DNA of 62,826 bases, taken from positions 1 to 62,826 of the forward strand of contig JAGQMJ010000001.1 in assembly GCA_020428685.1 (NCBI GenBank). The letters run 5' to 3'. The notes under the pieces were generated by a model that was not told where the DNA came from, did no database searches, and saw only the letters and a program-made list of their open reading frames with translations. This document shows, one piece after another, positions 15,743-29,764 of the stretch (position 1 is the first letter of the stretch; the number at the start of each line of letters is the position of its first letter). Made by a program: the position numbers and the translations under genes. Origin of the DNA: Candidatus Kaiserbacteria bacterium (GTDB lineage Bacteria; Patescibacteriota; Minisyncoccia; Phycocordibacterales; UBA918).

Positions 15743-15851
15743 TATAGGCAGCCTAACCCTCATTGCAAGCAACAGGTTATACACAGACTAATACACAACA
15801 TAGCTGCTCATTCTAAAATAAGCCTTCCCAAGGCTGATATACTAGCTGTAT

Positions 15852-16745
15852 ATGAAGGGGCAGATTAACCCGAAGATTCTTGGCGCATCCATTATCGGTT
15901 TTGCGCTAGTTGCTGGTGCTTACACGATAAGTAATTTCGGTAAGTCTTCAGCCTCTCTACCACAACAAGCCACTGTTGCCAGCATCGAAGTTGCACCTCG
16001 TGAAGCTATTGCCGTGACTGACAACGATCAAAATGGAATCGAGGACTGGCGCGATGAATTCGTCACCACAAAACCAGTCCTGCTTACTGAAGCAGTCGAC
16101 ACCTACAAAGCTCCTGAGACCTTAACCGGCAAGCTAGGTATCGACTTCATGGAGAGCATTATCGAAGCTCGTGGGTTTGGGCCATTTGGGCGAAGTGATG
16201 AAGAAATCATCGCTGATACGGTCAATATTTTAAGCAAGGAAACTGCCCACGACCTATACGACACACCGGATATTATTGTCTTGAAGGAGTGGTCTGACCG
16301 AGACATAGTCAACTACGCCAATATTGCCGCTGACATTATCTCGAGAAATAGTAACTCTGATCTAGAGGGAGAATTGGCTATTTTGCAAGATATTTTGCGA
16401 GATAAAAACGAATCTAGACTCGAGGAGCTCAAGAAGCTTTCTGAGATCTACCGACTCTATCGTGATGAAACCCTCAATCTACCCGCTCCAGCCTTCTTGG
16501 CCAAGCAACACCTAGACCTTATCAATACTTACCACGCCATCCATAAAGATATCGAGGCCATGACTCTGGTCCTAGACGATCCAGCGGTGACACTATTACG
16601 CCTCAAGCGCTACGAAGACGACGCAACAGGGCTTGTTCTATCCCTCCAAAACCTATACCTAGCGCTCGAGCCTCACGCTGACCTTTTTTCTGCCAATGAC
16701 CCAGCCTTATTATTCGTTGCCTTTAGTCCCGATTTTCAAAATTAA
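15852..16745 (+). CDS. Signal-anchored envelope protein, first gene of the T4SS-like cluster
   Basis: N-terminal TM (ILGASIIGFALVAGAYTI), an acidic Ca-binding-like DNDQNGIEDWRDEF motif, and a helical C-terminal domain. Confidence 0.55.
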   Translation: MKGQINPKILGASIIGFALVAGAYTISNFGKSSASLPQQATVASIEVAPREAIAVTDNDQNGIEDWRDEFVTTKPVLLTEAVDTYKAPETLTGKLGIDFMESIIEARGFGPFGRSDEEIIADTVNILSKETAHDLYDTPDIIVLKEWSDRDIVNYANIAADIISRNSNSDLEGELAILQDILRDKNESRLEELKKLSEIYRLYRDETLNLPAPAFLAKQHLDLINTYHAIHKDIEAMTLVLDDPAVTLLRLKRYEDDATGLVLSLQNLYLALEPHADLFSANDPALLFVAFSPDFQN

Positions 16746-16755
16746 TTAATAGCTT

Positions 16756-18165
16756 ATGGATTATTTTTTCACACTACTAAAAAAGAGCTTGGTACTAACA
16801 GTTTTTATAATATTCGGCTTTGTTGCTACCTACATCCCTCAACCCTACAACCAAGTAGAGACCGTCGAGGCCGGAGGAATGACGGGGGGATCGACTGAGC
16901 CAACACAGATACTAAATCAAATACAATTAGGATTTGTTAATATCGCAGCCACAGCTTCAGCTGCTTATGACAAAATCTCAGCTTTTGCTTCAAATAATCT
17001 TGCCATTAAGGAGCTTCAACTCGACGGTATCGGTTGGGCTATCGCCAAAGGCATCGTATCTTCCATGGTCCAAAGCATCATTAGTTGGATAAACTCCGGC
17101 TTTCAAGGTAGTCCCGCTTTTGTGACCAACCTAGAAGGATTTTTGATAAATGCGGCCGATCAAGCGGTTGGCGAGTACATTGCTGACCTTGGTGCACTCG
17201 GGTCGTTTATATGTTCGCCTTTTAGGCTAGATGTACAAATATCTGTCGCTCTCCAATACGACCGCATACGAGGCAACGGTCAACCAGCTCCGACCTGTAC
17301 GCTTTCTGGGGTACTAAGCAACCTTGAAGGTTTTATATCTGGTGATTTTACCCAAGGCGGTTGGGAAGGGTGGTTTGATATCACTGCTACCCCAGAAACT
17401 TACACCCCTTATGGATCAGTTCTAGCGGCTCAGTCTGGAGCCAGAGCAAGAATAATTAATGCTCAAGGTGAAGAGCTTAAACTTTTAGATTTTGGTGACG
17501 GATTCTTGTCTGGCGAGATCTGTGAAGTCGTCCATGGAGCCGCCAGCCCACGAGAAGAATGTTTCATTTCTAAGCCCGGTAAAATTATCGAGGAAGCTCT
17601 GTCATTCAATTTAGATACTGGGAGACAATCGTTGATAGAAGCCGATGAAATAAATGAGGTCATTTCAGCCCTACTTGGTCAGCTTGCCAATACAGCCCTC
17701 ACAGGAGCTGCTGGTCTACTAGGTCTTTCTGGTGGAACTGGTCACACCTACAGCGGCTTCAACGGAGGCTCTTACATCAACCAGCTCCAGGCCGAAGGCA
17801 CTGGTGGTATCAACCCAGCTGAATCGAGAGCCCTACTGACTGATTCACTAGCCGATCAACAACGACTGGAAGCGCTAATACGAACTTACCAACCAGCCTT
17901 ACTAGCTTACGGCAGCAACCCAACCGTCCACGCCCAAAGGAGAGCCGGAGCGATTGACGCTTATAATGAAACTTTTGATTTGCAGACAGACGTAGCCATC
18001 AGTATCCCCGCTCTCCAAAACATGATTATAAAGTTTGACGCAGCAGTCTTGGCGGAAGACTTCGATACTCAGGCCGCCATCATGTCTGACTACATCACCT
18101 TGGTACTGTATGCTGAAGCCAGCATAGATGCCTATGAATCCAAGTGGAAGACCACCCTCAGATAG
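16756..18165 (+). CDS. Signal-anchored envelope protein, family unknown (T4SS-like cluster)
   Basis: 469 aa with an N-terminal TM (LVLTVFIIFGFVATYI). It starts 10 nt after the previous gene. Confidence 0.55.
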   Translation: MDYFFTLLKKSLVLTVFIIFGFVATYIPQPYNQVETVEAGGMTGGSTEPTQILNQIQLGFVNIAATASAAYDKISAFASNNLAIKELQLDGIGWAIAKGIVSSMVQSIISWINSGFQGSPAFVTNLEGFLINAADQAVGEYIADLGALGSFICSPFRLDVQISVALQYDRIRGNGQPAPTCTLSGVLSNLEGFISGDFTQGGWEGWFDITATPETYTPYGSVLAAQSGARARIINAQGEELKLLDFGDGFLSGEICEVVHGAASPREECFISKPGKIIEEALSFNLDTGRQSLIEADEINEVISALLGQLANTALTGAAGLLGLSGGTGHTYSGFNGGSYINQLQAEGTGGINPAESRALLTDSLADQQRLEALIRTYQPALLAYGSNPTVHAQRRAGAIDAYNETFDLQTDVAISIPALQNMIIKFDAAVLAEDFDTQAAIMSDYITLVLYAEASIDAYESKWKTTLR

Positions 18166-18180
18166 CGACCAAAAACAATT

Positions 18181-20466
18181 ATGAACGTTCAAAAAAAACA
18201 CCTACAAATACTCCTACTCATACTGCCAGTTTTTCTGCTGACACCTAGCTTTGCCTTTGCAGATGTTTATGGTGGTGTACAAGAATTGATCTGGAGTTTT
18301 GTAAACAACTTTTTTGGACTACTGGCCGGATGGGGTGGACTACTCCTAAACGCAGGTGTAACAAGCTTCGTAGTTGGCTTTGGTGACTCATTTCTCAATA
18401 GTGGAGTAGGGGTGGTAGTGGACAAATTGTGGGTCAACGTCAGAGACATCTTCAACCTCACCTTCATCTTTGGCTTAGTTTATATCGGCTTCAAAATGAT
18501 ACTCGATAGTGACGACTCCAGTACTCGCAAGTGGTTAATCAATCTTATCCTAGCAGCCTTACTAGTAAACTTCAGTCTTTACATCACTAAGTTTGTGGTA
18601 GACCTTACCAACATTCTCGCCAGCCAAATCGCCACCCAAGGCTTTGTTACAGACGCTTCTAAAGGAGTGCTAGTCTCAGACACATTCATGTCACACCTTG
18701 GACTCCCTTCTATTTGGGGAGGAGATGGTTCATCTAGTTTGCCAAAAAATCTACAGGGGACTAGCGGCGCCTGGGGTTACATTATGGGTACTGCTATCCT
18801 TTTTATGGTCGCCGCCTTTGTATTTGCTGCTGGAGGAATCCTACTTATTATTCGCTACGCTGTACTTTGTGTTTACATGGTACTTTCACCTCTCATGTTC
18901 CTCGGCTGGGTTTTCCCAAGCCTACAGAGCAAATCATCAGAATACTGGAAAGGCTTTCTCGGACGTGCCTTTTTCGCACCCGCCTACTTACTATTAATCT
19001 ACTTCGCTAGTCAAATAATCGCTGGTTTTTACGGTACAGGCGGTTCACAAAAGAAGGTTGATTTCCAGGGCTCCATGTCAGGAAGTGGCGACACTATCGC
19101 CGGCACTTTCTCAGCCACCATACCACCGTTTATTTTGTCTTGTGTCTTCTTGATTGCGGCTCTAGTGGTCGGAACAAAACTCGGCGCCAACGGCGCAGAC
19201 ACTGCCCTCAAAATGGGTAACAACCTCCGCGGCAGAGTCCAGAGAGGTGTCGGGGCAGCAGCTGGTGGAGCCACTTTTGGGGCTGGCGCCTGGGCAATGA
19301 GAAATACTGTTGGAGCTCAAGCTTACAAAATGAGTCAGGATGAGAAGTGGAAAGCTCGAGCCAGTCGCACATACCTAGGTAAAAAATTCTTCCAGTCTAC
19401 CCAAGCTGTGGCTGGGGCTAGTTTTGACGCTAGAAATGTTGGCGGTGTAGGGAAAAATCTCTCTATTGGCCAAGGCAAGAAGGGTGGTTACGCCAAGCAT
19501 ATTGATGATACAGTCAAAGCCAACCAGAAATTTGTCGAATCTATCAAGACCAATGCCGACCTTTCTAATCCAGAGACTCAGGCAGCCATCGCAGTTGATG
19601 CAGCCAAGATCGCAGCTGAAGCAAACGCTGCAACACCAGCTCTAAAGGCAAGACAGGACCGCCTAAACAAGAACCAAGAAATCTTAAAGAAGAGCGATAT
19701 CGAAGCTACCGCCGAACTAACAAGCGACATTCAGGATCTAGACGCATCTATCGCTAGCCTCACTCAAGAACTCAGCGGAAACAACCTAACTTCAGATGAA
19801 AGAAAGGAGAAGGAGAGGATGCTAGCCGAGGATACTGGTAGCAAACTAGCCAATACTGAATCACTAGCAATTGTTAAGGAGCGTGCAGCTGAGAGAGCTA
19901 AGGTAGCTGATATAGAAGCCAAGGGTGACAGTGCTTCAACAGCCGAAAGACAGGCACTCGAGGACAGTAAGAAGCGTGTAGCGGCCATTGAACAAAAGTT
20001 TACCAATGTTCAAGCTACTGCAGCCGTACAGCTCAAAACTATGGAGGACAAGGCGAAGAACGCTCACAAGGAGGCTGAGGCTAAGGTTAAGTACGCAAAT
20101 GAAATTGCCTACATGGAATACCTGGCAAAGACTCAAAGCAAGTGGAGCGATATGACAAACCAAGCTTCTGCAGGTATTGCAGGTAGCGGCGCGGGATCAG
20201 CTTCCGGAATCGCAGCCGGGCTTGGTGGTGCAGCCGCGGTTGGCACCATGGGTGCTGCTGGCATCCTAGCCATTTCTGCTATGAATGAAAGATCCGATGT
20301 ATACAAGGCTATGCACGCTGATATGGTAAAGAAGTATGGTGTTAATGGAATGAAGGGGATGGAGAATGAAGCTAATGCTGCCATGGCACGCACCATTGCA
20401 CAACAGCTTATAGAACAGGGCGGTGCCAACACAGTCCCTCCAGCTCCAGCACCAGCTAGCGAATAA
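18181..20466 (+). CDS. TrbL/VirB6-like polytopic membrane protein with a long Ala/Lys/Glu coiled-coil and Gly/Ala-rich tail
   Basis: 761 aa with a signal peptide and about 7 TM helices in the first 340 aa. The following roughly 300 aa are coiled coil, with an AGSGAGSASGIAAGLGGAAAVG segment. Confidence 0.5.
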   Translation: MNVQKKHLQILLLILPVFLLTPSFAFADVYGGVQELIWSFVNNFFGLLAGWGGLLLNAGVTSFVVGFGDSFLNSGVGVVVDKLWVNVRDIFNLTFIFGLVYIGFKMILDSDDSSTRKWLINLILAALLVNFSLYITKFVVDLTNILASQIATQGFVTDASKGVLVSDTFMSHLGLPSIWGGDGSSSLPKNLQGTSGAWGYIMGTAILFMVAAFVFAAGGILLIIRYAVLCVYMVLSPLMFLGWVFPSLQSKSSEYWKGFLGRAFFAPAYLLLIYFASQIIAGFYGTGGSQKKVDFQGSMSGSGDTIAGTFSATIPPFILSCVFLIAALVVGTKLGANGADTALKMGNNLRGRVQRGVGAAAGGATFGAGAWAMRNTVGAQAYKMSQDEKWKARASRTYLGKKFFQSTQAVAGASFDARNVGGVGKNLSIGQGKKGGYAKHIDDTVKANQKFVESIKTNADLSNPETQAAIAVDAAKIAAEANAATPALKARQDRLNKNQEILKKSDIEATAELTSDIQDLDASIASLTQELSGNNLTSDERKEKERMLAEDTGSKLANTESLAIVKERAAERAKVADIEAKGDSASTAERQALEDSKKRVAAIEQKFTNVQATAAVQLKTMEDKAKNAHKEAEAKVKYANEIAYMEYLAKTQSKWSDMTNQASAGIAGSGAGSASGIAAGLGGAAAVGTMGAAGILAISAMNERSDVYKAMHADMVKKYGVNGMKGMENEANAAMARTIAQQLIEQGGANTVPPAPAPASE

Positions 20467-20470
20467 TCAT

Positions 20471-21037
20471 ATGATTGACACAACAATATTAGACAGAATA
20501 AAGATACTTAATCCTGATTATGCAAAGCTAATCAAAAGTGATTTTGCTGATAAAGCAGCTGAGCGCTTCCGAGACATATTAAAACTAAACCCTAGCCAAA
20601 CTGCCGCTTTAAGCAATGGAATATCATTATACTTACTGGTTTTCATTAGCTTAGATGAGTTGGTCACTTTCATTTCTAGGGAGTGTGAACTATCAGTTGA
20701 TGAGTCTACCTTGGTTGCCAGTGCTATTCTTTCCGCACTTCCAGAAGATTTTGACACCCAACATCAAGCCGCTTTAGGAGAACTTCGGCCCACAGAATCA
20801 CCAATAGAACCTCCGACCACAACAACCACTCCAGTTTCGACTCCCGTTCCGACACCGGCCCCAACCCCTGTCCCAAAACCACCAGTTGTTCAGCCTGAAA
20901 TCTCAAAAGAAATCGCCGAAACAGAATCTGCCTTGAAGGCAATTCCACACATTCGCACCATGGCGAGAGATATAGATGCCAATAAAGACAACACTCCCAC
21001 TTACTCATCAAGCCAAGACTCAATCCTAAAACGCTAG
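20471..21037 (+). CDS. Small protein with a Pro/Thr-rich linker and a C-terminal HIRTMARDIDA motif (T4SS-like cluster)
   Basis: ATG at 20471, 4 nt after the VirB6-like stop. It has a PPTTTTTPVSTPVPTPAPTPVPKPP linker. Confidence 0.5.
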   Translation: MIDTTILDRIKILNPDYAKLIKSDFADKAAERFRDILKLNPSQTAALSNGISLYLLVFISLDELVTFISRECELSVDESTLVASAILSALPEDFDTQHQAALGELRPTESPIEPPTTTTTPVSTPVPTPAPTPVPKPPVVQPEISKEIAETESALKAIPHIRTMARDIDANKDNTPTYSSSQDSILKR

Positions 21038-21113
21038 ATTATTATTCAAAGTTCGCCCGAACTATGAATAATTCAACCAACTTTTGCATCACCACCATGT
21101 ATAATGGTGGTGT

Positions 21114-21542
21114 ATGCGTTTTGAAGTTCCTCAATTCATCGAAATCGAAGATAAGATATTTGGTCCGCTGACCTGGCGACAATTTTTATATCTCAGTGGG
21201 GGAGTGGGATTTTCTGTAGTGATGTTTTTCACAGTTCCACTTATTGTCTTTGTAATATTCGGCCTACCTCTGGCCGCTCTAGCTGGCGCCCTTTCATTCT
21301 ACCCAGTCAACAACCGACCTTTTTCATATTTTTTAGAAGCGATTGTAAAATATTTATCAAGCCAGAGACTCTACCTGTGGCGACAGCAGTCAGACATTGT
21401 GCACAGAGCCTCCGCACCAGCCAAGCCAAGCGAGAACGGCCACGGACTCTCTAGTACCGCCACCAAGACCAGAACCGCAAAAGGGAACATCACATCTTTA
21501 GCCAGAAAATTAGAATTACAAGCCTTACAAAAAAGCGAATAA
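21114..21542 (+). CDS. PrgI/TcpE-like (VirB3-analogue) two-TM protein
   Basis: MRFEVPQFIEIEDKIFGPLTWRQFLYL followed by two adjacent TM helices. It sits directly upstream of the VirB4 module. Confidence 0.6.
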   Translation: MRFEVPQFIEIEDKIFGPLTWRQFLYLSGGVGFSVVMFFTVPLIVFVIFGLPLAALAGALSFYPVNNRPFSYFLEAIVKYLSSQRLYLWRQQSDIVHRASAPAKPSENGHGLSSTATKTRTAKGNITSLARKLELQALQKSE

Positions 21543-21543
21543 T

Positions 21544-22185
21544 ATGCCAAAAGCGCAAGGAATATCACAAGACTTTGTATCTATCCGAGATATAAAAGAC
21601 AACGTAGTCATCCAAAAGAACGGTCAAATGTCTATGGTTGTTCTGGCTTCTTCAGTCAACTTCGCCTTAAAATCTCTAGATGAGCAAAAAGCTATCTTGA
21701 TGCAGTTCCAACAATTTTTAAACACCCTAGACTTCTCATTACAGATATATGTTCAATCAAGAAAACTAAATATCGAACCATACCTAGATGTCTTATCCGG
21801 CCTAGAGGTAAAGCAAGACAATGACCTGATGCGAATCCAGCTTCGTGAATACATGGAGTTTATCCGCACCTTCACAGAAGACATCGATGTGATGAGTAAG
21901 AATTTCTTCGTGGTAATCCCTTATTCTCCAGCCAAAATCAATATCACAAAGGGCATCACAGATATTTTTACCGGCACCACTAAGACATCAAATCTTCCAA
22001 CCGAGGCTCGCTTCGAAGAGCACCGAGTTCAGCTTGAGCAGAGGGTAGGTATGGTGACAGAAGGACTAGCTCGGGTCGGAGTCCGTACTGTCACCCTACA
22101 AAAGGATGACTTGGTGGAACTTTTCTACCACCTATACAACCCAGCAGACGCAACCGGATCAGCCCCTTTAGTCGATAACGCCTAA
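21544..22185 (+). CDS. Stand-alone protein resembling the N-terminal domain of Gram-positive VirB4/ConE/TcpF ATPases
   Basis: QDFVSIRDIKDNVVIQKNGQMSMVVLASSVNFALKSLDEQKAILMQFQQFLNTLDFSLQIYVQSRKLNIEPYL matches the remembered N-terminal pattern of those ATPases. No P-loop is present. Confidence 0.4.
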   Translation: MPKAQGISQDFVSIRDIKDNVVIQKNGQMSMVVLASSVNFALKSLDEQKAILMQFQQFLNTLDFSLQIYVQSRKLNIEPYLDVLSGLEVKQDNDLMRIQLREYMEFIRTFTEDIDVMSKNFFVVIPYSPAKINITKGITDIFTGTTKTSNLPTEARFEEHRVQLEQRVGMVTEGLARVGVRTVTLQKDDLVELFYHLYNPADATGSAPLVDNA

Positions 22186-22194
22186 CAAAATATC

Positions 22195-24006
22195 ATGGCA
22201 CTTCTTGATTTTCTACAACCACAAAACAACAAAGCAGGCGGAGGCGGTGACAACAACCCGTCACTCAGCAATCAACTCCTGACTCTCACAGACGTTATCG
22301 CCCCGTCAGCTATCAATATCAGCCCGCGCAGCATAAACATCAGCGGTGTAAACGCTCGTGTCTACTATGCGGTTTCTTACCCACGCTTTTTGAACGACGG
22401 ATGGATGGAGCCAGTTCTAAACTTGGCCAAGGAGATTGATGTATCGATTTTTATTCATCCTATCGACACTGCCGAGACCCTCAAGAAATTCCAAAAGAAA
22501 GTAGCCGAAGTACAAAGCCAGATTAATGTAAAAGCAGATAGGGGAGAAGTGCGTGACCCTCAACTAGAAGCTGCCTATCGAAACCTAGAGGACCTACGAG
22601 ACAAACTCCAGCAAGCTGAGGAAAAACTTTTCAATGTTGGATTTTATCTCACTATCTACGGAGAGAGTGAAGCAGAAATAAACAAAGTTGAAAATGATAT
22701 TCGAGGTATTTTAGATGCGCGTATGGTGGCGATGAAGCCTGCCTTGTTCCAACAAGAGCAAGGACTTAAGAGTGTTCTGCCGCTTTCAAACGACGAACTT
22801 TTGGTTCACAGTAAATTCAACTCCGAGCCGCTTTCAAGTTTTTTCCCATTCACATCTTTCGACCTTACTTCAGACACTGGAATCCTTTACGGCATCAACC
22901 GTCACAATTCTTCTTTGGTGCTTTTCGACCGCTACAGCCTAACCAACTACAACTCAGTCACCTTTGCTACATCGGGGGCAGGGAAGTCATACGGATTGAA
23001 GCTTGAGATTCTTCGTTCACTTATGTTTGGTACTGAAGTTATCGTACTTGACCCTGAGCGAGAGTATGAGTACCTAGCCGAGGCTACTGGCGGAAGATTT
23101 TTCAATATTTCTCTTTCTTCCAACCACCACATCAACCCGTTTGATCTTCCACCACCAGGCGATGATGAGGATCCGCGCGATGTACTACGCACTCACATCA
23201 TTGAAATGGTTGGACTATTCCGCTTGATGCTTGGCGGACTATCGGCAGAAGAAGAAACCCTTATCGATCTCGCCATCCAAGAAACCTACGCCCTCAAGGA
23301 TATTACCGGTGACACAGATTTTACCGACATGGAGCCGCCCCTACTGACAGACTTCGAAATGGTACTAGCAGGAATGGACGGCAGCTCTTCGCTCATCACC
23401 AGACTCCAGAAGTACACTTCTGGGACCTGGTCTGGCTTCATGAACCAACCAACCAACGTAGATATCAATCAAAAATTCGTCGTGTTCTCACTCCGAGACA
23501 TGGAGGACGAACTAAAGACCATCGCCATGTACATCATCACCAACTTCATTTGGGGTAGTGTACGACGACGCTTGGCCAAGCGCCTGATGGTGATTGATGA
23601 AGCCTGGTGGATGATGAAATCTGAAGACACCGCCTCTTTCCTATTTTCACTAGCTAAACGTGGCCGAAAATACTACCTTGGTATCGCCACTATTACCCAA
23701 GACGTAGACGACTTCTTACGCTCACCTTATGGAGTACCGATGATTACCAACTCATCAATCCAACTCCTGATGAAACAGTCTCCAACCGCTATAGACAATA
23801 TCCAGCGCACCTTCAACCTGACCGATGAAGAAAAATTTTTACTTCTCGAGTCTAGTGTAGGGGAGGGAATTTTCTTTGCTGGTCTAAAGCATGTCGCTAT
23901 AAAAATCATCGCCTCATACACCGAGGACCAAATCATCACCTCAGACCCATCCCAGCTTCTCCAAATCAAAAAAGCCCGAGAAGAACTTCAGGCTACTCGA
24001 GTGTAG
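22195..24006 (+). CDS. virB4: VirB4/TrbE-family type IV secretion ATPase
   Basis: 603 aa with an N-terminal VirB4-type domain (DVIAPSAINISPRSINISGVNARVYYAVSYPRFLNDGW). Walker A is FATSGAGKSYG and Walker B is RLMVIDEAWWMM, followed by ITQDVDDF. Confidence 0.85.
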   Translation: MALLDFLQPQNNKAGGGGDNNPSLSNQLLTLTDVIAPSAINISPRSINISGVNARVYYAVSYPRFLNDGWMEPVLNLAKEIDVSIFIHPIDTAETLKKFQKKVAEVQSQINVKADRGEVRDPQLEAAYRNLEDLRDKLQQAEEKLFNVGFYLTIYGESEAEINKVENDIRGILDARMVAMKPALFQQEQGLKSVLPLSNDELLVHSKFNSEPLSSFFPFTSFDLTSDTGILYGINRHNSSLVLFDRYSLTNYNSVTFATSGAGKSYGLKLEILRSLMFGTEVIVLDPEREYEYLAEATGGRFFNISLSSNHHINPFDLPPPGDDEDPRDVLRTHIIEMVGLFRLMLGGLSAEEETLIDLAIQETYALKDITGDTDFTDMEPPLLTDFEMVLAGMDGSSSLITRLQKYTSGTWSGFMNQPTNVDINQKFVVFSLRDMEDELKTIAMYIITNFIWGSVRRRLAKRLMVIDEAWWMMKSEDTASFLFSLAKRGRKYYLGIATITQDVDDFLRSPYGVPMITNSSIQLLMKQSPTAIDNIQRTFNLTDEEKFLLLESSVGEGIFFAGLKHVAIKIIASYTEDQIITSDPSQLLQIKKAREELQATRV

Positions 24007-24020
24007 TATACTTTTAGTAT

Positions 24021-24920
24021 ATGGCGGTGCCTCAACGAGCAGATGACCAATACCGAGGAGAACCTTCCAGCCAGCCGGCTCGGAGCGGTTTTTCTCGTAA
24101 GGGAAAGCCTGGGAAATTGAGTTCTGACAACATCCGCAATATCAGGACCTCCAACATGCCTGGTTCACCCAAAAACACAGAATTCGTCAGCGGCAAAAGA
24201 GATACCGCCACCAACTTCAACGCTGAATACGCCAAAAAAGGCATCCAGCCCACCTCTGCCAATGACCCAAGCTACCACCAACCAAAACCAGACCAAAACA
24301 TCCGCGCCGTTAAAACAACACACTATCAAAATCCTCGAATTGTCTCGAGAAAAAATTATTCAAAAATCAACCTACCGGGCGGCGGCAACTCCCTAGCTAA
24401 AGCTGCTTTTACTCGGGGCAAAGTCACCACCGTCAACGCCAGTATCCTGGCCGGCGGCATCAGCGCCTGGATGATGTTCCAGTTACCCTTCGCCATCCTG
24501 AGTATTATTTTATTCGGCGTGACTGGTTTCGTTGAGAGCCTAACCATATCAACTAATGCGAAAGCGGATGATAGAGGTCTTGTATCTTCAATGATAGAGG
24601 GCGTGGGGGAAGTTTTAGTAACAGTGCTGAGTTTTGTTGCTGAAAATGTATTGAAATTAGTAGGTATAGATATTGATATATTGAATCCAAGCCACCTATT
24701 CCTACTTTCTAACTCCATAGTCTTCTTCTTTGGCCTAGCGATGCTGCTGGTTATCTACTTTATCTATAAAATCGCTTTCCTTAATCCCTTATCTGGTAAA
24801 GCCGGGGGTATGAAAATGGGTGCTCTACTATTGTGTCTCATTGGCTATTGGTTTCCAGTTGCAAACCTCTTTCCTTGGTTTATCGTCTGGACGGTAGTGG
24901 TCTGGCTTCATCCAAAATAA
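24021..24920 (+). CDS. Membrane protein with a disordered basic N-terminal half and about 4 C-terminal TM helices (T4SS-like cluster)
   Basis: 299 aa; family unknown. It starts 14 nt after virB4. Confidence 0.5.
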   Translation: MAVPQRADDQYRGEPSSQPARSGFSRKGKPGKLSSDNIRNIRTSNMPGSPKNTEFVSGKRDTATNFNAEYAKKGIQPTSANDPSYHQPKPDQNIRAVKTTHYQNPRIVSRKNYSKINLPGGGNSLAKAAFTRGKVTTVNASILAGGISAWMMFQLPFAILSIILFGVTGFVESLTISTNAKADDRGLVSSMIEGVGEVLVTVLSFVAENVLKLVGIDIDILNPSHLFLLSNSIVFFFGLAMLLVIYFIYKIAFLNPLSGKAGGMKMGALLLCLIGYWFPVANLFPWFIVWTVVVWLHPK

Positions 24921-24927
24921 AAAACGA

Positions 24928-24954
24928 AGTCTGGGTAGTTTTCATACCCAGACT
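24928..24954. terminator. Hairpin between convergent genes
   Basis: AGTCTGGGTA-loop-TACCCAGACT. Confidence 0.6.
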
Positions 24955-24967
24955 CTCTTCCGTAAAC

Positions 24968-25282
24968 TCAAATTGATCCAGCAAAAGCAAAGCTGGCTCC
25001 TTGTGGAATTTCCGTTGTATCGACTACACGGTCGCTCCAACCATTTAATGAGCGCATACGCTCAATAGTCAGATTGCCACGGAAATGTTTGATTACAGCA
25101 CCTACGGTACCTCTGCTCGAATCGGTCTTCGTCATGCAGCGAAGCTTAGTTCCGCCATATTTATTACAGCGTGCAGTTGACGTATCAAACGGGCCAGCAG
25201 CTGCAGGCAAGGCTGGGGCAGAAGCGAACATCAGTGCTACCATCGCAGCCAGAGCTGCGGTCATGATTTTTTTGGTCTTCAT
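24968..25282 (-). CDS. Small secreted 2-Cys protein on the opposite strand inside the cluster
   Basis: ATG at 25282 preceded by GAGGAG; the track's start at 25297 is a TTG. Ala-rich signal peptide (MKTKKIMTAALAAMVALMFASAPALPAAAG). The C-terminal part is weakly LysM-like. Confidence 0.55.
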   Translation of the reverse strand: MKTKKIMTAALAAMVALMFASAPALPAAAGPFDTSTARCNKYGGTKLRCMTKTDSSRGTVGAVIKHFRGNLTIERMRSLNGWSDRVVDTTEIPQGASFAFAGSI

Positions 25283-25474
25283 GATGACTCTCCTCAATTA
25301 TTTAAATTGGAAATTTGTTTCCTTTTGTTGCGATTGAACATAGTGTCAGCTAGTGACACTCCCACTATTGTTTATACCACATTAGTAAAAACACGCAATA
25401 CCCACAAAACGTAATTTCCCACATTTAAAGGATATTAACCCTAAAATAATCCCTTGGTCTGCTATTATTATCGT

Positions 25475-26437
25475 ATGAGGAAACTATTTATATTTACATT
25501 TTTAATCAGCGGCTTTTTAGTCAATACTGCCTTCGCCCAAATCGGCTCATCTATTATCAACCCCGAGCTAAACATCGAACTACAACCAGAATTCCCAAGA
25601 CCAGGGGAAGTAGTGACCGCCACTCTAAATGACTACAGTGGTGGTACCTATGGTTCAAATGTCAGCTGGGTTTTAGATGGCCAAGTGGTTACCGAAGCCT
25701 TGAACCAACGCTCAACCCAATTCACCGCAGGTGCGGTCGGGGTGAACCAAAAAATTGAAGTAGTATTGAGTAAGCCTCAGGGAGGAAAGGAGGTACTCGA
25801 ACGAACAGTCAAGCCAGTGTATCTAGACATAGTAATCGAACCACAAACACGAGTACCAAATTTTTACCTAGGCCGCTCACTACCAAGTATCGGCAGCATT
25901 GTAAATGCGACAGCCCTAGTCAGCACAGACACCTTTATGGATCCTGATTTGGTTTACACTTGGAGACTCAACCAAACCGTACTTAACGGAGGACCAATCC
26001 GTGGTCTAAACCAAGTATCTTTTACTACCCCAAGAGGTGGTGAGATGGTGCTGTATCTACAAGTCACAGACACAAAAGGAAATGTGATAGTGAAGAGAGC
26101 TGTTTCTATACCTTCTGTCGAGCCGACACTGAAGTTTTATGAAGTGAATCAATTGTTTGGCACAAGTCACCGACCAATCGTAGGTAGCTTGGCACTAATA
26201 GGGAACAGTGTCACAGTACAAGCCGAACCATTCAACCTAGACTCTAGAGTCTACAACAACCCAGACTTGAGTGAGTGGAAGATAAACGGAGTTAATTCTG
26301 GAAATGTTGGTGGCAACCCGTATGAGGTTACCTTGCAGCGAGTTGGATTTTCTGGTTATTCAAACCTTCAGTTCCATGTTCGAGACACCACACAAGTATT
26401 ACAAGGCGCTAGAGATAGTATTCAAATAAACTTCTAA
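25475..26437 (+). CDS. Secreted beta-rich (Ig-like repeat?) protein, family unknown (T4SS-like cluster)
   Basis: Signal peptide MRKLFIFTFLISGFLVNTAFA. The V/T/N/G-rich composition suggests repeated beta-sandwich units. Confidence 0.5.
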   Translation: MRKLFIFTFLISGFLVNTAFAQIGSSIINPELNIELQPEFPRPGEVVTATLNDYSGGTYGSNVSWVLDGQVVTEALNQRSTQFTAGAVGVNQKIEVVLSKPQGGKEVLERTVKPVYLDIVIEPQTRVPNFYLGRSLPSIGSIVNATALVSTDTFMDPDLVYTWRLNQTVLNGGPIRGLNQVSFTTPRGGEMVLYLQVTDTKGNVIVKRAVSIPSVEPTLKFYEVNQLFGTSHRPIVGSLALIGNSVTVQAEPFNLDSRVYNNPDLSEWKINGVNSGNVGGNPYEVTLQRVGFSGYSNLQFHVRDTTQVLQGARDSIQINF

Positions 26438-26439
26438 TT

Positions 26440-27642
26440 ATGAAACGTCCAGTCTTTATCATCAGTGGAGTTGTCATCATTCTTATTTTGATTGCAATTT
26501 GGGTTTACATGCTTTTCTTCGGTAGTCCAAAAAACGCCGATGATACTTTTGCAGATTTAAATCTCGGCGACACCACAGATACTTCATATATAGAAAACAC
26601 CGACACCACCGATGGGGAAGCGGTTGTAGATTTGAGCAGTCCAGACAGACTACGTCAACTAACCACCAAGCCAGTGATTGGTTTTAATGAATTTGTAAAA
26701 GACGCCAGCTCAACCCCAGCTATACTATATGTAGAAGCTGGTACTGGACATGTTTTTTCTATCGACCTAGAGACAGGTGAAGAATCCCGACTATCCGGCA
26801 CCACCATCCCTTCTAGCCAAGAAGCTGAAATAACCCCAAATGGAAAATACATCATGTACCGCTCAGGTGAGGGGAGTGGTCGTACATACTTAGTTGGAAC
26901 CATCAGTTCAACCACCAACGAACTTTCTACCTCAGACTTAGACGAGTCAATCATTAGCTTCTCAGCCACTAATGACAACCACTTCCTATACGCGGTAAAA
27001 ACCCAAAATTCAACCATTGGTAAGTCATACAATCCTGAAGACAAGACAAGTAAAACTCTATTCACCCTACCTTTCCGAGACGCTACTATTGACTGGGGTA
27101 GTACCGCTTCAGATTCACACTTTGCGTACCCAAAAACCACCAGTAAGCTAGAGAGCTTTCTATTCAAGATTGATAGTACAAAAATATCCCGACTTCCAAT
27201 CGATGGATACGGCATGTCTGCTTCAGGAAATAATGATTTGGTGATATACAGCAAACAAGACAATGGCGAGTATAAAACTTTTTTCTACAACATTAGCGAG
27301 GATTTAGTTACGAAGCATGTCCTAACCACCATCCCAGAAAAGTGTGCATTTAGTACAAATAATTCTGAGCTAGTGATTTGTGCCCAAAGTACAATCAATA
27401 ATAACCTAAACATTCCTGACTCCTGGTATTCAGGTGAGACCTATTTCGCAGACTCTATTTGGCAAACAACTTTAGCCGGGAGCGCTACCATGCTTATTAA
27501 TACAGAATCTGAATCAGGCAGGGAGTTAGATATCGTAGATATTGACTTAGGGGTTGATGATAAAAATATTTACTTCCTAAACAAAAACGATAAAACCCTT
27601 TGGCTTTACGAGCGAGTACAAAGTTTATCAAACCCTAGTTAA
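26440..27642 (+). CDS. Signal-anchored protein with probable beta-propeller (TolB-like) ectodomain (T4SS-like cluster)
   Basis: N-terminal TM (VFIISGVVIILILIAIWVYMLFF). It has repeated short beta-strand/turn motifs such as GKYIMYRSGEGSG and DLVIYSKQDNGEY. Confidence 0.45.
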   Translation: MKRPVFIISGVVIILILIAIWVYMLFFGSPKNADDTFADLNLGDTTDTSYIENTDTTDGEAVVDLSSPDRLRQLTTKPVIGFNEFVKDASSTPAILYVEAGTGHVFSIDLETGEESRLSGTTIPSSQEAEITPNGKYIMYRSGEGSGRTYLVGTISSTTNELSTSDLDESIISFSATNDNHFLYAVKTQNSTIGKSYNPEDKTSKTLFTLPFRDATIDWGSTASDSHFAYPKTTSKLESFLFKIDSTKISRLPIDGYGMSASGNNDLVIYSKQDNGEYKTFFYNISEDLVTKHVLTTIPEKCAFSTNNSELVICAQSTINNNLNIPDSWYSGETYFADSIWQTTLAGSATMLINTESESGRELDIVDIDLGVDDKNIYFLNKNDKTLWLYERVQSLSNPS

Positions 27643-27648
27643 TAGCTT

Positions 27649-28425
27649 ATGAAATACCTATCCTTTTTAGCCTTAGTAATAATCCTTACTCCTACATTTG
27701 TTTTTGCAGAGTATAAACCGTTAGTTGGAATCCCTGGAGTTACCAACGTAAACACTGACTTCAATTCATACATCAACGCCCTATACGCACTCTCCATCAG
27801 TATAGCGGCCCTACTGGCAGTGATTAAGATTGTAATTGCTGGCGTTAAATGGATGACTACAGATATCATTACCACCAAAGGGGAGGCTAAGAAAGATATT
27901 CAAGGAGCTCTGCTTGGTCTACTGGTAGTCCTGGCTGCGGTACTGATTATTACTGTAATCAACCCTGATATTCTGAAAGGAGGATTAAATATAAGTAAGT
28001 CAGCTCCAGTTAGCCATCCAGGCACTGTTAAAACACCCCCTCCATACACTATAGAAAATGGTGATCAGGTTACTGCTATTCCTCTTGGAATGGACAGTAA
28101 TTCTGTGAAAAATATGTGTGAACAAGTCGATACTGATAAATGTAATGACTACTGGTTTAGTAAGACTTGGGATAATGAAATAAGCTGCTATAAGGGCGAG
28201 TACTACAAACCATCAGGTGGGGCAGAGGTTTGTATCACAAGAGCTAAAGATCTAAAGCTTGATAGTTTTAGTTGTATAGACTCAGGTAAAACTGAGTATG
28301 ATAATGAAGCTGGGACTGACAATATACTATACAACTGCTCAACCGCCAGAAGTGCTTGTGTTAATGCTGGAGGTAAAGCAGGTGACAGCACTAAGTATTC
28401 AAAAAGTGTGTCTTGTAGCTATTAA
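27649..28425 (+). CDS. VirB2/TrbC-like T4SS pilin fused to a 150-aa 8-Cys C-terminal domain
   Basis: Signal peptide ending VFAEY and two hydrophobic helices (LYALSISIAALLAVIKIVIAGV; ALLGLLVVLAAVLIITVI). After a PPP linker comes a domain holding all 8 Cys residues. Confidence 0.55.
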   Translation: MKYLSFLALVIILTPTFVFAEYKPLVGIPGVTNVNTDFNSYINALYALSISIAALLAVIKIVIAGVKWMTTDIITTKGEAKKDIQGALLGLLVVLAAVLIITVINPDILKGGLNISKSAPVSHPGTVKTPPPYTIENGDQVTAIPLGMDSNSVKNMCEQVDTDKCNDYWFSKTWDNEISCYKGEYYKPSGGAEVCITRAKDLKLDSFSCIDSGKTEYDNEAGTDNILYNCSTARSACVNAGGKAGDSTKYSKSVSCSY

Positions 28426-28437
28426 CTCAAGAATGAT

Positions 28438-28469
28438 AAAACACCCAGACCTATAGGTCTGGGTGTTTT
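28438..28469. terminator. Bidirectional intrinsic terminator
   Basis: AAAACACCCAGACC-TATA-GGTCTGGGTGTTTT between the pilin gene and yidC. Confidence 0.85.
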
Positions 28470-28509
28470 ATTGTTCTACTTTGATTCTATCTAGATAAAA
28501 CTTATCTTT

Positions 28510-29238: not shown

Positions 29239-29252
29239 AAGTGAGTTCTATT

Positions 29253-29585: not shown

Positions 29586-29604
29586 AGTTTAGTTAGTATA
29601 TAAG

Positions 29605-29630
29605 AAAAAAAGCTCTATTGAGCTTTTTTT
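29605..29630 (-). terminator. Hairpin with flanking A/T runs overlapping the rpmH stop (possible attenuator before rnpA)
   Basis: AAAAAAAGCTC-TATT-GAGCTTTTTTT. Confidence 0.4.
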
Positions 29631-29764
29631 ACTGTTAGTTGAGCGCGACCTTTTCGTCGTCTAGCTTGAATAATCTTTCTTCCACTTGGGGTTGCAGATC
29701 TCACTAGAAAACCGTGTGTAGTTGCACGCTTTTTCTTACTTGGTTGATAGGTTCGTTTTGGCAT
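29615..29764 (-). CDS. rpmH: 50S ribosomal protein L34 (absent from the ORF track because it is under 60 aa)
   Basis: Hand translation: [49 protein letters not shown]. Confidence 0.95.

What the first reader, a model, noticed from the sequence alone, without database searches (positions are those of the whole stretch)
15852..28425. Origin-proximal minimal T4SS-like machine surrounded by six or seven orphan envelope proteins
Eleven same-strand ORFs separated by only 1-76 nt, plus one opposite-strand insert, run from 15852 to 28425.

Seen directly:
- A VirB4-type ATPase (22195-24006) with Walker A SGAGKSYG and Walker B LMVIDEAWW.
- A two-TM PrgI/TcpE (VirB3-analogue)-like protein just upstream (21114-21542).
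- A 761-aa polytopic TrbL/VirB6-like protein with a roughly 300-aa coiled-coil tail (18181-20466).
- A VirB2/TrbC-like pilin (27649-28425).

Each remaining ORF carries a signal anchor or TM block, but I cannot assign a family.

Not present in the cluster or its flanks: a VirD4 coupling ATPase, a relaxase, VirB11, VirB8/9/10, an integrase, or bounding direct repeats. Composition looks like the neighbouring core genes, and the cluster ends 84 nt from yidC-rnpA-rpmH-dnaA.

This argues against a conjugative element and for a domesticated envelope machine. DNA uptake, a pilus/adhesin, or host-cell contact in an episymbiont are the obvious hypotheses. T4SS-like loci have been noted in CPR genomes, but their partner proteins and function are essentially uncharacterised.
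Basis: partly seen in the sequence, partly recalled or inferred. Interest (0 to 1): 0.75.

Follow-up and report, generated by a model that had tools for sequence, protein, structure and literature searches.

The report
Chromosomal Patescibacteria type IV secretion locus
This is the chromosomal, non-conjugative type IV secretion (pilus) gene cluster that ultra-small Patescibacteria carry next to their replication origin; it is real and biologically important, but this kind of locus, including its position beside dnaA, was already described in 2023-2025.

Summary
From 15852 to 28425 there are eleven tightly packed same-strand genes plus one opposite-strand insert, ending 84 nt from yidC-rnpA-rpmH-dnaA.

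Assignments made here:
- VirB4 ATPase: passes the NCBIfam CD1110-family cut-off.
- 213-aa ORF upstream of it: the split-off VirB4 N-terminal domain (TrsD-like), not an envelope orphan.
- PrgI (VirB3-like): above the Pfam threshold.
- 761-aa protein: an extended VirB6. Its model's best PDB matches are R388 TrwI, and its homologues carry TrbL/TrbL_3.
- VirB2-type pilin: conserved core with a hypervariable Cys-rich tail.

First-pass calls for the orphans, all inferred from weak matches:
- 400-aa protein: membrane-anchored TolB-like beta-propeller.
- 327-aa protein: secreted, Ig-like.
- 297-aa protein: carries a TSP3-type calcium-binding motif.
- 469-aa protein: large family of unknown fold. Two orthologues carry lectin and Ig modules instead of the usual C-terminus.

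Gene order is conserved in 80 species-level Paceibacteria genomes, and divergence tracks DnaA. No relaxase, coupling protein or att-like repeats are on the contig; the only recombinase is Xer-type, 13 kb away.

The "domesticated machine" reading is therefore supported. However, Quinonero-Coronel et al. 2025 and Wang et al. 2023 already describe this system. Function remains inferred: probably a host-contact pilus or conduit.

The parts
15852..16745 (+). 297-aa bitopic protein (one N-terminal TM segment) with a TSP3-type Ca-binding motif (DNDQNGIEDW) and a helical ectodomain. First gene of the cluster; function unknown.
   Evidence: No Pfam, NCBIfam or PDB match for the window protein. Five orthologues hit TSP3_bac, best E 2.1e-09. 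tblastn finds it in 28 of 58 loci with enough upstream DNA, and a ~300-aa single-TM positional equivalent is present in nearly all. Its identity tracks DnaA (rho 0.96).
16756..18165 (+). 469-aa bitopic protein of a large Patescibacteria family of unknown fold. It has a conserved Cys-containing core (WINSGF..GSPAF..CSPF) and a C-terminal helical bundle. Candidate surface or host-binding component.
   Evidence: 726 homologues, all named 'hypothetical' and none with Pfam apart from one PF09603. 5170 clusters at 50% identity with E<=1e-3. No plasmid homologue and no PDB sequence or fold match. In the AF2 model only residues 350-469 are confident. Orthologues in L038 and L048 carry F5/8 type C plus Bact_surface_Ig-like domains at the C-terminus. 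Present in 44 of 58 loci.
18181..20466 (+). Extended VirB6/TrbL-like polytopic membrane protein: about 8 TM segments in residues 1-350, followed by a ~300-aa charged coiled-coil-like tail and a Gly/Ala-rich hydrophobic end.
   Evidence: AF2 model of residues 1-420 has pLDDT 81.9. The top 7 Foldseek PDB hits are R388 TrwI/VirB6 chains, prob 0.92-1.00, TM-score (target-normalised) 0.38-0.49. The family profile matches TrwI 7o3v_F at E=0.046. Homologues carry PF19590 or PF04610. The tail matches coiled-coil proteins only. Present in 52 of 58 loci.
20471..21037 (+). ~189-aa protein (the ORF from GTG 20423 gives 204 aa; ATG 20471 is the more likely start) with a small helical N-domain and a Pro/Thr-rich linker. 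Fast-evolving positional slot between VirB6 and PrgI; function unknown.
   Evidence: Only low-complexity matches such as the TonB Pro-rich region. tblastn finds it in few loci, but a 150-300-aa ORF with 0-1 TM segments occupies this slot in almost all.
21114..21542 (+). PrgI-family (VirB3-like) two-TM protein.
   Evidence: PF12666 41.1 bits, above the gathering score of 27. Present in 58 of 58 loci with enough upstream DNA.
21544..22185 (+). TrsD-like soluble protein: the N-terminal domain of VirB4 encoded as a separate gene.
   Evidence: NCBIfam VirB4_plasma positions 104-245, E 5.4e-09; CD1110 positions 2-118, E 0.0011; TrsD E 0.015. No TM segment. It is a separate ~210-aa ORF in 79 of 80 loci. 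It is in frame with virB4 in only 27 of 79 loci, which is chance level, so readthrough is not implied.
22195..24006 (+). VirB4-type ATPase (CD1110 / MPF_FATA-like), lacking the first ~180 profile positions.
   Evidence: conju_CD1110 357.4 bits against a cut-off of 325, profile positions 181-733 of 752. P-loop_TraG 87.3 and AAA_10 38.7 bits. Walker A and B motifs seen. 87-94% identical to the 119 next-best-scoring protein clusters, those that carry a name being named as Patescibacteria. Closest plasmid homologues are 29-35% identical, from Firmicutes and Actinobacteria.
24021..24920 (+). 299-aa protein with a basic, disordered N-terminal ~130 aa and 3-4 C-terminal TM segments. Variable slot after virB4; function unknown.
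   Evidence: No family match. tblastn finds it in 11 of 62 loci. A 130-300-aa ORF with 2-4 TM segments is in this position in most loci but absent in some, such as L032, L034 and L049.
24968..25297 (-). Opposite-strand ORF (109 aa from TTG; signal-peptide-like N-terminus). Lineage-specific insert, probably not part of the machine.
   Evidence: No tblastn hit in any of the 80 related loci. A terminator-like hairpin with a T-run lies on the minus strand at 24955-24927, just after its stop. No family match above noise.
25454..26437 (+). 327-aa secreted protein (signal peptide) built of Ig-like beta-sandwich domains.
   Evidence: BiPBP_C is weak in the window protein (E 0.0013) and found in 7 orthologues. 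The family profile hits the Ig-like Hoc protein at E 5e-4 and other Ig-like decoration or surface proteins. Present in 55 of 62 loci.
26440..27642 (+). 400-aa membrane-anchored (one N-terminal TM segment) TolB-like beta-propeller protein.
   Evidence: TIGR02800 propeller_TolB E 8.4e-05. In the family-profile search of the PDB, 12 of 15 listed matches are TolB and two more are related 6-phosphogluconolactonase-like proteins, E 0.0012-0.013. One orthologue hits PD40. Present in 61 of 62 loci.
27649..28425 (+). VirB2/TrbC-type pilin: signal peptide, two hydrophobic helices with a basic loop, then a ~150-aa Cys-rich C-terminal domain that is hypervariable among relatives.
   Evidence: T4SS_pilin 23.1 bits, below the gathering score of 26.6. 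28 of 29 orthologues hit T4SS_pilin (best E 2.2e-11) and 4 hit TrbC. The alignment shows a conserved ~110-aa core and unalignable tails of 0-250 aa. Present in 55 of 62 loci; its order relative to the 400-aa gene swaps in some.
28431..28476 (.). 20-bp-stem hairpin between the convergent pilin and yidC genes. Likely a bidirectional terminator marking the end of the operon.
   Evidence: Terminator-like scan.

Best explanation
The locus is the vertically inherited, chromosomal 'Patescibacteria-clade' type IV secretion system of a Candidatus Kaiserbacteria (Paceibacteria) genome.

Shown here:
- It encodes a monoderm-type (MPF_FATA / CD1110-like) VirB4 ATPase whose N-terminal domain is a separate gene (TrsD-like).
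- It also encodes a VirB3-like PrgI, an extended VirB6 platform protein and a VirB2-type pilin.
- It has lineage-specific extracytoplasmic partners: a TolB-like propeller anchored in the membrane, a secreted Ig-like protein, a Ca-motif protein and a large 469-aa orphan.
- It lacks a relaxase, a coupling ATPase and mobile-element boundaries.
- It has sat between ksgA and yidC-rnpA-rpmH-dnaA across the class.

Inferred:
- VirB4/TrsD hexamers, docked on PrgI and VirB6, drive extraction and polymerisation of the pilin into a short pilus or tube.
- The variable Cys-rich C-terminal domains of the pilin decorate the outside of that tube.
- The propeller, the Ig-like protein and the 469-aa protein form the wall-spanning or tip part that replaces VirB8/VirB5/VirB1.
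- The machine is used in contact with the host cell to move macromolecules (import from the host or export of effectors), not to conjugate.

The direction and the cargo are not established.
For: Component identities: VirB4, PrgI, TrsD; VirB6; pilin; propeller, Ig-like.

Not mobile:
- No relaxase, T4CP or VirB11 in any ORF of the contig.
- The only recombinase is Xer-type, 13 kb away.
- No att-like repeats.

Vertical inheritance and selection:
- Conserved synteny in 80 species-level genomes.
- Availability-corrected presence: PrgI 58/58, TrsD 58/58, VirB6 52/58, propeller 61/62, Ig-like 55/62, pilin 55/62.
- Divergence co-varies with DnaA, rho 0.43-0.96.
- VirB4 is more conserved than DnaA in 45 of 59 genomes.

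Surface exposure of the 469-aa family: two orthologues end in F5/8 type C lectin-like plus surface Ig-like domains.

Literature:
- The same system and genomic context are described in PMC12102498.
- The homologous cluster, including its pilins, is essential for epibiotic growth of Southlakia epibionticum, while comEC is dispensable (PMC10633639; PMC12857230).
- Tubular structures that may be T4SS pili were seen at a parasite-host interface in a 2026 preprint.
Against: - No functional data exist for any Paceibacteria system. Essentiality was shown only in Saccharimonadia, a different class with a different gene order and a pilin array.
- A coupling protein may be encoded elsewhere in the genome. 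PMC12102498 finds VirD4 homologues in most Patescibacteria genomes, far from virB4. Only this 62.8-kb contig was examined.
- The window's own pilin and VirB6 fall below the curated Pfam thresholds and are assigned through relatives and a fold match with modest scores (E 0.018-0.05, TM-score 0.44-0.49).
- The roles given to the propeller, the Ig-like protein and the 469-aa and 297-aa proteins rest on co-location and co-conservation only.
- The 469-aa model was poor (pLDDT 64.7).
- No peptidoglycan hydrolase lies inside the cluster.
Confidence: 0.75

Rival explanations
1. The locus is a DNA-uptake (competence-type) T4SS, working like Helicobacter ComB or the archaeal Ced system. A relaxase-free, T4CP-free VirB4 machine would import environmental or host DNA as a nucleotide source or for recombination.
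For: - There is no relaxase or T4CP.
- The VirB4 C-terminal part weakly matches CedB (39 bits).
- DNA-processing genes lie upstream on the same strand: comM-like Mg-chelatase/ComM at 8743-10266 and UvrD/PcrA at 12503-14482.
- In the ABY1 class the T4SS is co-located with comF, recG and radA (PMC12102498).
Against: - The CedB match is far below that family's cut-off of 700.
- No ComB- or CedA-like partner was recognised.
- In Southlakia, competence depends on T4P and ComEC, and comEC deletion leaves viability intact while the T4SS is essential. The essential role is therefore not ComEC-linked DNA uptake (PMC12857230).
- UvrD and KsgA are ordinary housekeeping neighbours.
Confidence: 0.12
2. The locus is an integrative conjugative element, or its decaying remnant. 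On this reading it is a mobile MPF_FATA conjugation module that landed near the origin in this genome.
For: - VirB4, PrgI and TrsD are hallmarks of Gram-positive conjugative elements. The nearest non-Patescibacteria VirB4s are on Firmicutes and Actinobacteria plasmids.
- A tyrosine recombinase is on the contig.
- G+C of the cluster (0.44-0.475) exceeds that of the dnaA side (0.37-0.40).
Against: - The same gene order and flanks are found in 80 species-level genomes whose DnaA is 52-91% identical to this one's.
- Divergence is co-linear with housekeeping genes.
- VirB4 is under stronger constraint than DnaA.
- The recombinase scores as XerC/XerD and is separated from the cluster by PNPase, comM, uvrD and ksgA.
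- There are no att-like repeats.
- The higher G+C extends over the upstream housekeeping genes too.
- A genuine relative (C. perfringens plasmid) has MobC, relaxase, VirD4, an unsplit VirB4 and an SLT hydrolase. All of these are missing here.
Confidence: 0.03
3. The locus is a pilus or adhesion organelle only. On this reading the machine builds a VirB2-type adhesive fibre for attachment to the host and transports nothing.
For: - The pilin has a hypervariable, Cys-rich surface domain.
- Lectin-like and Ig-like modules occur on orthologues of the 469-aa protein.
- There is no substrate-recruiting T4CP on the contig.
Against: - Patescibacteria already use type IV pili for adhesion (PMC12857230), and a PilB-type ATPase is on this contig.
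- An extended VirB6 and a highly constrained VirB4 are typical of translocating systems, although both are also needed for pilus biogenesis.
- This reading cannot be separated from the best explanation with sequence data alone.
Confidence: 0.1

Closest known systems
Patescibacteria-clade T4SS (Quinonero-Coronel et al. 2025, Microb Genom, PMC12102498), Paceibacteria arrangement
   Same: VirB4 with an adjacent TrsD, PrgI/VirB3, VirB6 and a VirB2-like pilin close by. No relaxase and no T4CP near virB4. Chromosomal position next to dnaA, dnaN, rnpA, ksgA and rpmH (searches compared).
   Different: Nothing essential differs; this locus is an instance of that system. Added here are a co-conservation and first-pass fold assignment of the genes left 'grey' in that study: a TolB-like propeller, an Ig-like secreted protein, a TSP3-motif protein and the 469-aa family with occasional lectin/Ig modules. 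Also added are the hypervariable pilin tail and the finding that VirB4 is more conserved than DnaA.
Southlakia epibionticum (Saccharimonadia) T4SS, SEML1_0006-0019 (Wang et al. 2023, Cell, PMC10633639)
   Same: A Gram-positive-like T4SS with pilins. No recognisable coupling protein or relaxase in the cluster. Encoded at the start of the chromosome. Proposed role at the host interface.
   Different: That system has an array of six divergent VirB2-like pilins, with peptidase and lysozyme genes downstream of virB4, and it is experimentally essential. Here there is one pilin gene with a long variable tail, no hydrolase inside the cluster, different accessory genes and no experimental data.
CD1110/CTn2-type MPF_FATA conjugation modules of Firmicutes (e.g. 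C. perfringens plasmid NZ_CP143494.1)
   Same: The VirB4 passes the CD1110 equivalog cut-off, and PrgI lies immediately upstream of the ATPase.
   Different: The plasmid has MobC, a relaxase, a VirD4-like T4CP, an unsplit 783-aa VirB4, an SLT transglycosylase and a sortase, and no pilin. VirB4 identity is only 29-35%.
pGO1/pSK41/pIP501-type systems (TrsD/TraD plus TrsE/TraE)
   Same: A separate small protein homologous to the VirB4 N-terminal region is encoded just upstream of the VirB4 ATPase (TrsD match; statement in PMC12102498).
   Different: The match to the TrsD model is weak (15 bits against a cut-off of 200). Those plasmids are conjugative, with relaxase and T4CP, and have no VirB2-type pilin.
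R388 Trw / Agrobacterium VirB (MPF_T) stalk and pilus components
   Same: VirB6-like fold of the 761-aa protein's membrane domain. VirB2/TrbC-type pilin topology.
   Different: No VirB5, VirB7, VirB8, VirB9, VirB10 or VirB11 was recognised. The organism is a monoderm. The VirB6 is 'extended' with a ~300-aa charged tail, and the pilin carries a large C-terminal domain.

Membership tests
Type IV secretion system (VirB4-based) | VirB4-family ATPase with Walker A and B motifs | tested here: met
   conju_CD1110 357.4 bits (cut-off 325), TraC-F-type E 2.2e-51, VirB4_CagE E 5.1e-30. Both motifs are read in the translation.
Type IV secretion system (VirB4-based) | VirB3-like small membrane partner next to VirB4 | tested here: met
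   PrgI PF12666 41.1 bits against a gathering score of 27. Two TM segments.
Type IV secretion system (VirB4-based) | VirB6/TrbL-like polytopic protein | tested here: met
   The window protein itself is below Pfam thresholds. Its model's top PDB matches are TrwI/VirB6, prob 1.00. Close homologues (41-61% identical) carry PF19590 or PF04610. Five orthologues hit TrbL, best E 2e-08.
Type IV secretion system (VirB4-based) | Type IV coupling protein (VirD4/TcpA) | tested here: not met
   No T4CP domain in any ORF of at least 110 aa on the 62.8-kb contig. The rest of the genome is not available.
Patescibacteria-clade T4SS (PMC12102498) | VirB4 belongs to the monophyletic Patescibacteria clade nested in MPF_FATA | tested here: inconclusive
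   No tree was built. The 119 next-best-scoring protein clusters are 87-94% identical, and those with a name are named as Patescibacteria taxa. The best non-Patescibacteria (plasmid) hits are 29-35% identical and belong to the CD1110 family. This is consistent with the clade but is not a phylogenetic test.
Patescibacteria-clade T4SS (PMC12102498) | TrsD homologue adjacent to virB4, VirB2-like pilin nearby, no relaxase | tested here: met
Patescibacteria-clade T4SS (PMC12102498) | Paceibacteria context: near dnaA, dnaN, rnpA, ksgA and rpmH | tested here: met
   ksgA 14933-15742, yidC, rnpA, rpmH 29615-29764, dnaA, dnaN. The same holds in 59-62 related loci.
MPF_FATA conjugative module | Relaxase plus T4CP plus a VirB1-type SLT/CHAP hydrolase in the module | tested here: not met
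   None is in the cluster or on the contig. The only wall hydrolase is an M23 plus LysM peptidase at 10310-11302 on the opposite strand, 4.5 kb upstream behind GNAT, uvrD and ksgA. Compare the plasmid locus.
MPF_FATA conjugative module | VirB8-like (PrgL/TcpC/TraM, NTF2-like) bitopic protein | tested here: inconclusive
   No sequence match for any bitopic ORF. Structures were not predicted for the 297-aa and 204-aa proteins.
Integrative conjugative element | Integrase at one end, flanking att direct repeats, patchy distribution among relatives | tested here: not met
   The recombinase is Xer-type and distant. Only 16-21-nt chance repeats are found. The locus is present in the same place in 80 species-level genomes.
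DNA-import T4SS (Ced / ComB) | CedB- or ComB4-type ATPase at equivalog level, with CedA/ComB partners | tested here: not met
   CedB scores 39 bits against a cut-off of 700. No partner families were detected.
VirB2/TrbC pilin | Signal peptide, two hydrophobic helices separated by a short basic loop, and a match to pilin profiles | tested here: met
   The topology is read in the sequence. The family core is conserved. 28 of 29 orthologues hit T4SS_pilin and 4 hit TrbC, although the window protein scores 23.1 bits, just under the gathering score of 26.6. Assembly into a pilus cannot be tested here.

The most novel reading that the evidence does not exclude
The four co-conserved extracytoplasmic 'orphans' may form a Paceibacteria-specific outer module of the T4SS. 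These are the 297-aa Ca-motif protein, the 469-aa family, the Ig-like secreted protein and the membrane-anchored TolB-like propeller. On this reading the module replaces VirB5/VirB8/VirB1 in a wall-less-outer-membrane setting. The 469-aa protein would act as a modular tip or host-recognition factor, since some orthologues swap its C-terminus for lectin and Ig domains. The pilin's hypervariable Cys-rich tail would form a variable pilus surface, and the two together would determine host range.
Probability: 0.25. Interest if true: 0.6.

Novelty: already known. Interest (0 to 1): 0.3.

Why it matters
Patescibacteria make up a large share of bacterial diversity and live as obligate epibionts. Their T4SS is the first T4SS shown to be essential for the bacterium that carries it, and its cargo and direction are unknown.

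This locus is a clean, compact example from the largest class (Paceibacteria), in which no experiments exist. The practical value of this re-analysis is a defined conserved core:
- TrsD, VirB4, PrgI, VirB6 and the pilin;
- a TolB-like propeller, an Ig-like protein and the 469-aa family.

It also flags likely host-specificity determinants, namely the variable pilin tail and the modular C-terminus of the 469-aa family. Both can guide structural and genetic work. It does not reveal a new kind of system.

Tried and rejected
1. Programmed stop-codon readthrough joining TrsD to VirB4. In the window the two ORFs are in frame and separated by one TAA. Across relatives they are in frame in only 27 of 79 loci, which is chance level, so this was rejected.
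2. Identifying the 469-aa protein.
   - Pfam and NCBIfam gave nothing.
   - The family-profile search of the PDB gave only low-complexity hits.
   - There is no plasmid homologue.
   - The AF2 model had mean pLDDT 64.7, with only the C-terminal helical bundle confident.
   - Foldseek returned nothing with E<0.08 and only generic helical proteins.
   - A VirB5-like role is therefore neither supported nor excluded.
3. Direct tblastn of the VirB6 membrane domain against plasmids gave no match. The assignment had to come from homologues and from the fold.
4. A search for att-like direct repeats around the cluster found only short chance pairs.
5. DnaA-box scan. The total count is not above chance (15 found, 16.6 expected), so no claim is made. 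Local clusters are only noted.
6. The idea that the 299-aa polytopic protein is a second pilin with a long leader. No pilin-profile hit was found in 14 family members, so it was dropped.
7. The 297-aa family profile against the PDB gave nothing.
8. Rfam found only three tRNAs in the window and no RNA element in the cluster.

Full report
**What is in the sequence**

Between 15852 and 28425 the plus strand carries eleven ORFs. The gaps between them are 1-76 nt, except for one 533-nt gap that holds a minus-strand ORF at 24968-25297. A 20-bp-stem hairpin at 28431-28476 follows the last gene. After it come yidC (minus), rnpA (minus), rpmH (29615-29764, minus), dnaA and dnaN.

Upstream lie ksgA, uvrD/pcrA, a GNAT gene, an M23+LysM peptidase (minus), comM, a dksA-like gene, PNPase and a tyrosine recombinase. 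Cumulative GC skew reaches its minimum at about 28-32 kb, which fits an origin beside dnaA.

The ATPase is 100% identical to a protein that NCBI names 'conjugal transfer protein TraC [Candidatus Kaiserbacteria bacterium]', on a contig of exactly 62,826 bases. The window is therefore a whole contig of a Paceibacteria genome bin. Neighbouring genes are annotated there as hypothetical proteins.

**Recognisable T4SS parts**

- *VirB4.* The 603-aa protein passes the NCBIfam equivalog 'VirB4-like conjugal transfer ATPase, CD1110 family' with 357.4 bits against a cut-off of 325. It covers only profile positions 181-733 of 752.
- *TrsD.* The missing N-terminal part of VirB4 is the preceding 213-aa ORF.
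  - It matches positions 2-118 of the same model, positions 104-245 of the mycoplasma-ICE VirB4 model (E 5.4e-09), and weakly the TrsD/TraD model. It has no TM segment.
  - The split is ancestral: a separate ~210-aa ORF precedes virB4 in 79 of 80 related genomes.
  - The in-frame arrangement seen here (one TAA between the ORFs) is a coincidence, because only 27 of 79 loci are in frame.
- *PrgI (VirB3-like).* It is above the Pfam threshold.
- *VirB6.* The 761-aa protein gets no direct family hit, but three lines agree on VirB6.
  - About 70 of its 120 closest homologues (41-61% identical) carry TrbL_3 or TrbL.
  - Five orthologues hit TrbL, with E down to 2e-08.
  - An AlphaFold model of residues 1-420 (pLDDT 81.9) has seven chains of R388 TrwI/VirB6 as its best PDB matches. 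Probability is 0.92-1.00 and the target-normalised TM-score is 0.38-0.49.
  - The ~300-aa tail matches only coiled-coil proteins. This makes the protein an 'extended VirB6' in the sense of the 2025 nomenclature review.
- *Pilin.* The last gene has the VirB2/TrbC layout.
  - The window copy is just under the Pfam gathering score (23.1 against 26.6 bits), but 28 of 29 orthologues hit T4SS_pilin.
  - The alignment shows a conserved ~110-aa core followed by unalignable, often Cys-rich tails of 0-250 aa.

**The 'orphans'**

- *400-aa protein.* It has one N-terminal TM segment. Its family profile hits TolB beta-propellers almost exclusively (E 0.0012-0.013; TIGR02800).
- *327-aa protein.* It has a signal peptide and Ig-like domains (BiPBP_C in 7 orthologues; Hoc Ig-like domain).
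- *297-aa protein.* It is bitopic with a TSP3-type calcium-binding motif and is otherwise unmatched.
- *469-aa protein.*
  - It belongs to a very large family: 5170 clusters at 50% identity. The family has no name, no Pfam model, no plasmid homologue and no PDB match by sequence or fold. Its model was only partly confident.
  - Two orthologues replace the C-terminal helical bundle with F5/8 type C plus bacterial surface Ig-like domains. This places that end outside the cell and hints at ligand binding.
- *204-aa and 299-aa proteins.* They occupy fast-evolving positional slots.
- *Minus-strand ORF.* It has no counterpart in any related locus and has its own terminator-like hairpin. I treat it as a lineage-specific insert.

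**Is it mobile?**

No relaxase, coupling protein, VirB11 or ICE-type integrase is found in any ORF of the contig. The recombinase at 2118-3053 scores as XerC/XerD. No att-like repeats flank the cluster.

In 80 species-representative genomes the order is kept as follows: UvrD-KsgA-[~300 aa]-[~470-800 aa]-VirB6-[150-300 aa]-PrgI-TrsD-VirB4-[±small polytopic]-Ig-like-pilin/propeller-YidC-RnpA-DnaA-DnaN. These genomes span Kaiser-, Nomura-, Adler-, Campbell-, Taylor- and Zambryskii-bacteria and others. Their VirB4 is 67-91% identical to this one.

Corrected for contig ends, presence is as follows:

| Component | Loci with it / loci with enough DNA |
|---|---|
| PrgI | 58/58 |
| TrsD | 58/58 |
| VirB6 | 52/58 |
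| 469-aa family | 44/58 |
| Propeller | 61/62 |
| Ig-like protein | 55/62 |
| Pilin | 55/62 |

The identity of every cluster protein co-varies with DnaA identity (Spearman 0.43-0.96). The housekeeping controls behave the same way. VirB4 is more conserved than DnaA (median 69.8% against 58.9%; higher in 45 of 59 genomes). This pattern indicates a vertically inherited gene set under strong constraint, not an ICE.

For contrast, a genuine CD1110-type plasmid module has MobC, a relaxase, VirD4, PrgI, an unsplit VirB4 and an SLT hydrolase, and no pilin.

**Comparison with the literature**

Quinonero-Coronel et al. 2025 (PMC12102498) report that about 80% of Patescibacteria genomes carry a VirB4 of a distinct clade nested in MPF_FATA. 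They find TrsD, PrgI/VirB3, VirB6 and VirB2-like pilins nearby, and almost no relaxases. In Paceibacteria they place the system next to dnaA, dnaN, rnpA, ksgA and rpmH. That is this locus.

Wang et al. 2023 (PMC10633639) showed by Tn-seq that the homologous cluster, pilins included, is essential for epibiotic growth of a Saccharibacterium. They noted the lack of coupling and relaxase proteins. The 2025 T4SS nomenclature review (PMC12857230) speculates about a pilus conduit for exchange with the host. A 2026 preprint reports tubular structures that may be T4SS pili at a parasite-host interface.

**Mechanism**

Shown here: the component set, the lack of mobility functions on the contig, vertical inheritance and strong constraint.

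Inferred from established T4SS biology (the R388 architecture and the roles of VirB4, VirB3, VirB6 and VirB2):
- TrsD/VirB4 docked on PrgI and VirB6 powers pilin extraction and polymerisation.
- The variable pilin tail and the 469-aa protein face the host.
- The propeller and the Ig-like protein bridge the wall.

Cargo and direction remain unknown. I put 0.75 on 'host-contact pilus or conduit of the Patescibacteria T4SS type, not conjugation'. The main rivals are DNA import (0.12), an adhesion-only pilus (0.10) and an ICE remnant (0.03).

**Verdict**

The kind of system is already known. The modest added value is the conserved-core definition and the first-pass annotation of the accessory genes.

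Noticed in passing
window 4431-28425 (+) relative to the origin at ~29.6-30.0 kb: The T4SS operon, and the whole block of plus-strand genes upstream of it, is transcribed towards the putative origin between rpmH and dnaA. It therefore runs head-on to the leftward replication fork, and the plus-strand GC skew is negative throughout this block. The same relative orientation (VirB4 and DnaA on one strand, YidC on the other) holds in all related loci where these genes were found. A head-on orientation is unusual for a highly conserved, presumably well-expressed operon.
   Followed up: partly
window 15708-15785: Three DnaA-box-like 9-mers (one mismatch each to TTATCCACA) lie within 80 nt at the ksgA end, just upstream of the first cluster gene. 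Other local groups are at 29856-29875 and 31406-31571. The window-wide count is not above chance (15 found, 16.6 expected), so this may mean nothing.
   Followed up: partly
window 24968-25297 (-), with hairpin 24955-24927: A minus-strand ORF encoding a small secreted-looking protein sits inside the operon, with its own terminator-like hairpin. It has no counterpart in any of the 80 related loci, so it looks like a recent lineage-specific insertion between the polytopic gene and the Ig-like gene.
   Followed up: partly
window 2001-26000 versus 26001-38000: G+C is 0.42-0.475 on the left side (housekeeping genes and the T4SS) and drops to 0.37-0.39 from about 26 kb through dnaA, dnaN, the PBP gene and tyrS. 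The step falls inside the cluster, near the propeller and pilin genes, rather than at its borders.
   Followed up: no
window 39499-41247 (-): A PilB-type T2SSE ATPase (350 bits, with an MshEN N-domain) lies about 10 kb beyond dnaA. No other pilus genes were recognised beside it in this window. It is a type IV pilus motor, not a VirB11.
   Followed up: no
window 51167-56010 (+): A HlyD-like membrane-fusion protein is followed by a full-length AcrB/RND-family transporter (451 bits). This is a tripartite-pump-like pair in an organism thought to lack an outer membrane.
   Followed up: no
window 10310-11302 (-): An M23 peptidase with two or three LysM domains is syntenic about 10 kb upstream of virB4 in at least 11 related loci, at the edge of the fetched flanks. 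PMC12102498 notes M23/LysM-containing VirB1-like proteins associated with VirB4 in Paceibacteria, so it could be the missing wall hydrolase. It is, however, separated from the cluster by GNAT, uvrD and ksgA.
   Followed up: partly
loci L041, L042, L051, L059, L060, L070: One subgroup of related genomes keeps PrgI-TrsD-VirB4 and the downstream genes but has no detectable homologues of the 297-aa, 469-aa and VirB6 genes upstream. Unrelated ORFs occupy that space, including polytopic proteins of 211-264 aa with 5-7 TM segments in three of them (L041, L059, L060). These could be short, divergent VirB6 proteins.
   Followed up: no
window 6622-8352 (+), 1151-2128 (-), 47799-48824 (+), 59459-60151 (+): Four sizeable ORFs (576, 325, 341 and 230 aa) have no Pfam or NCBIfam match at E<=0.001.
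   Followed up: no
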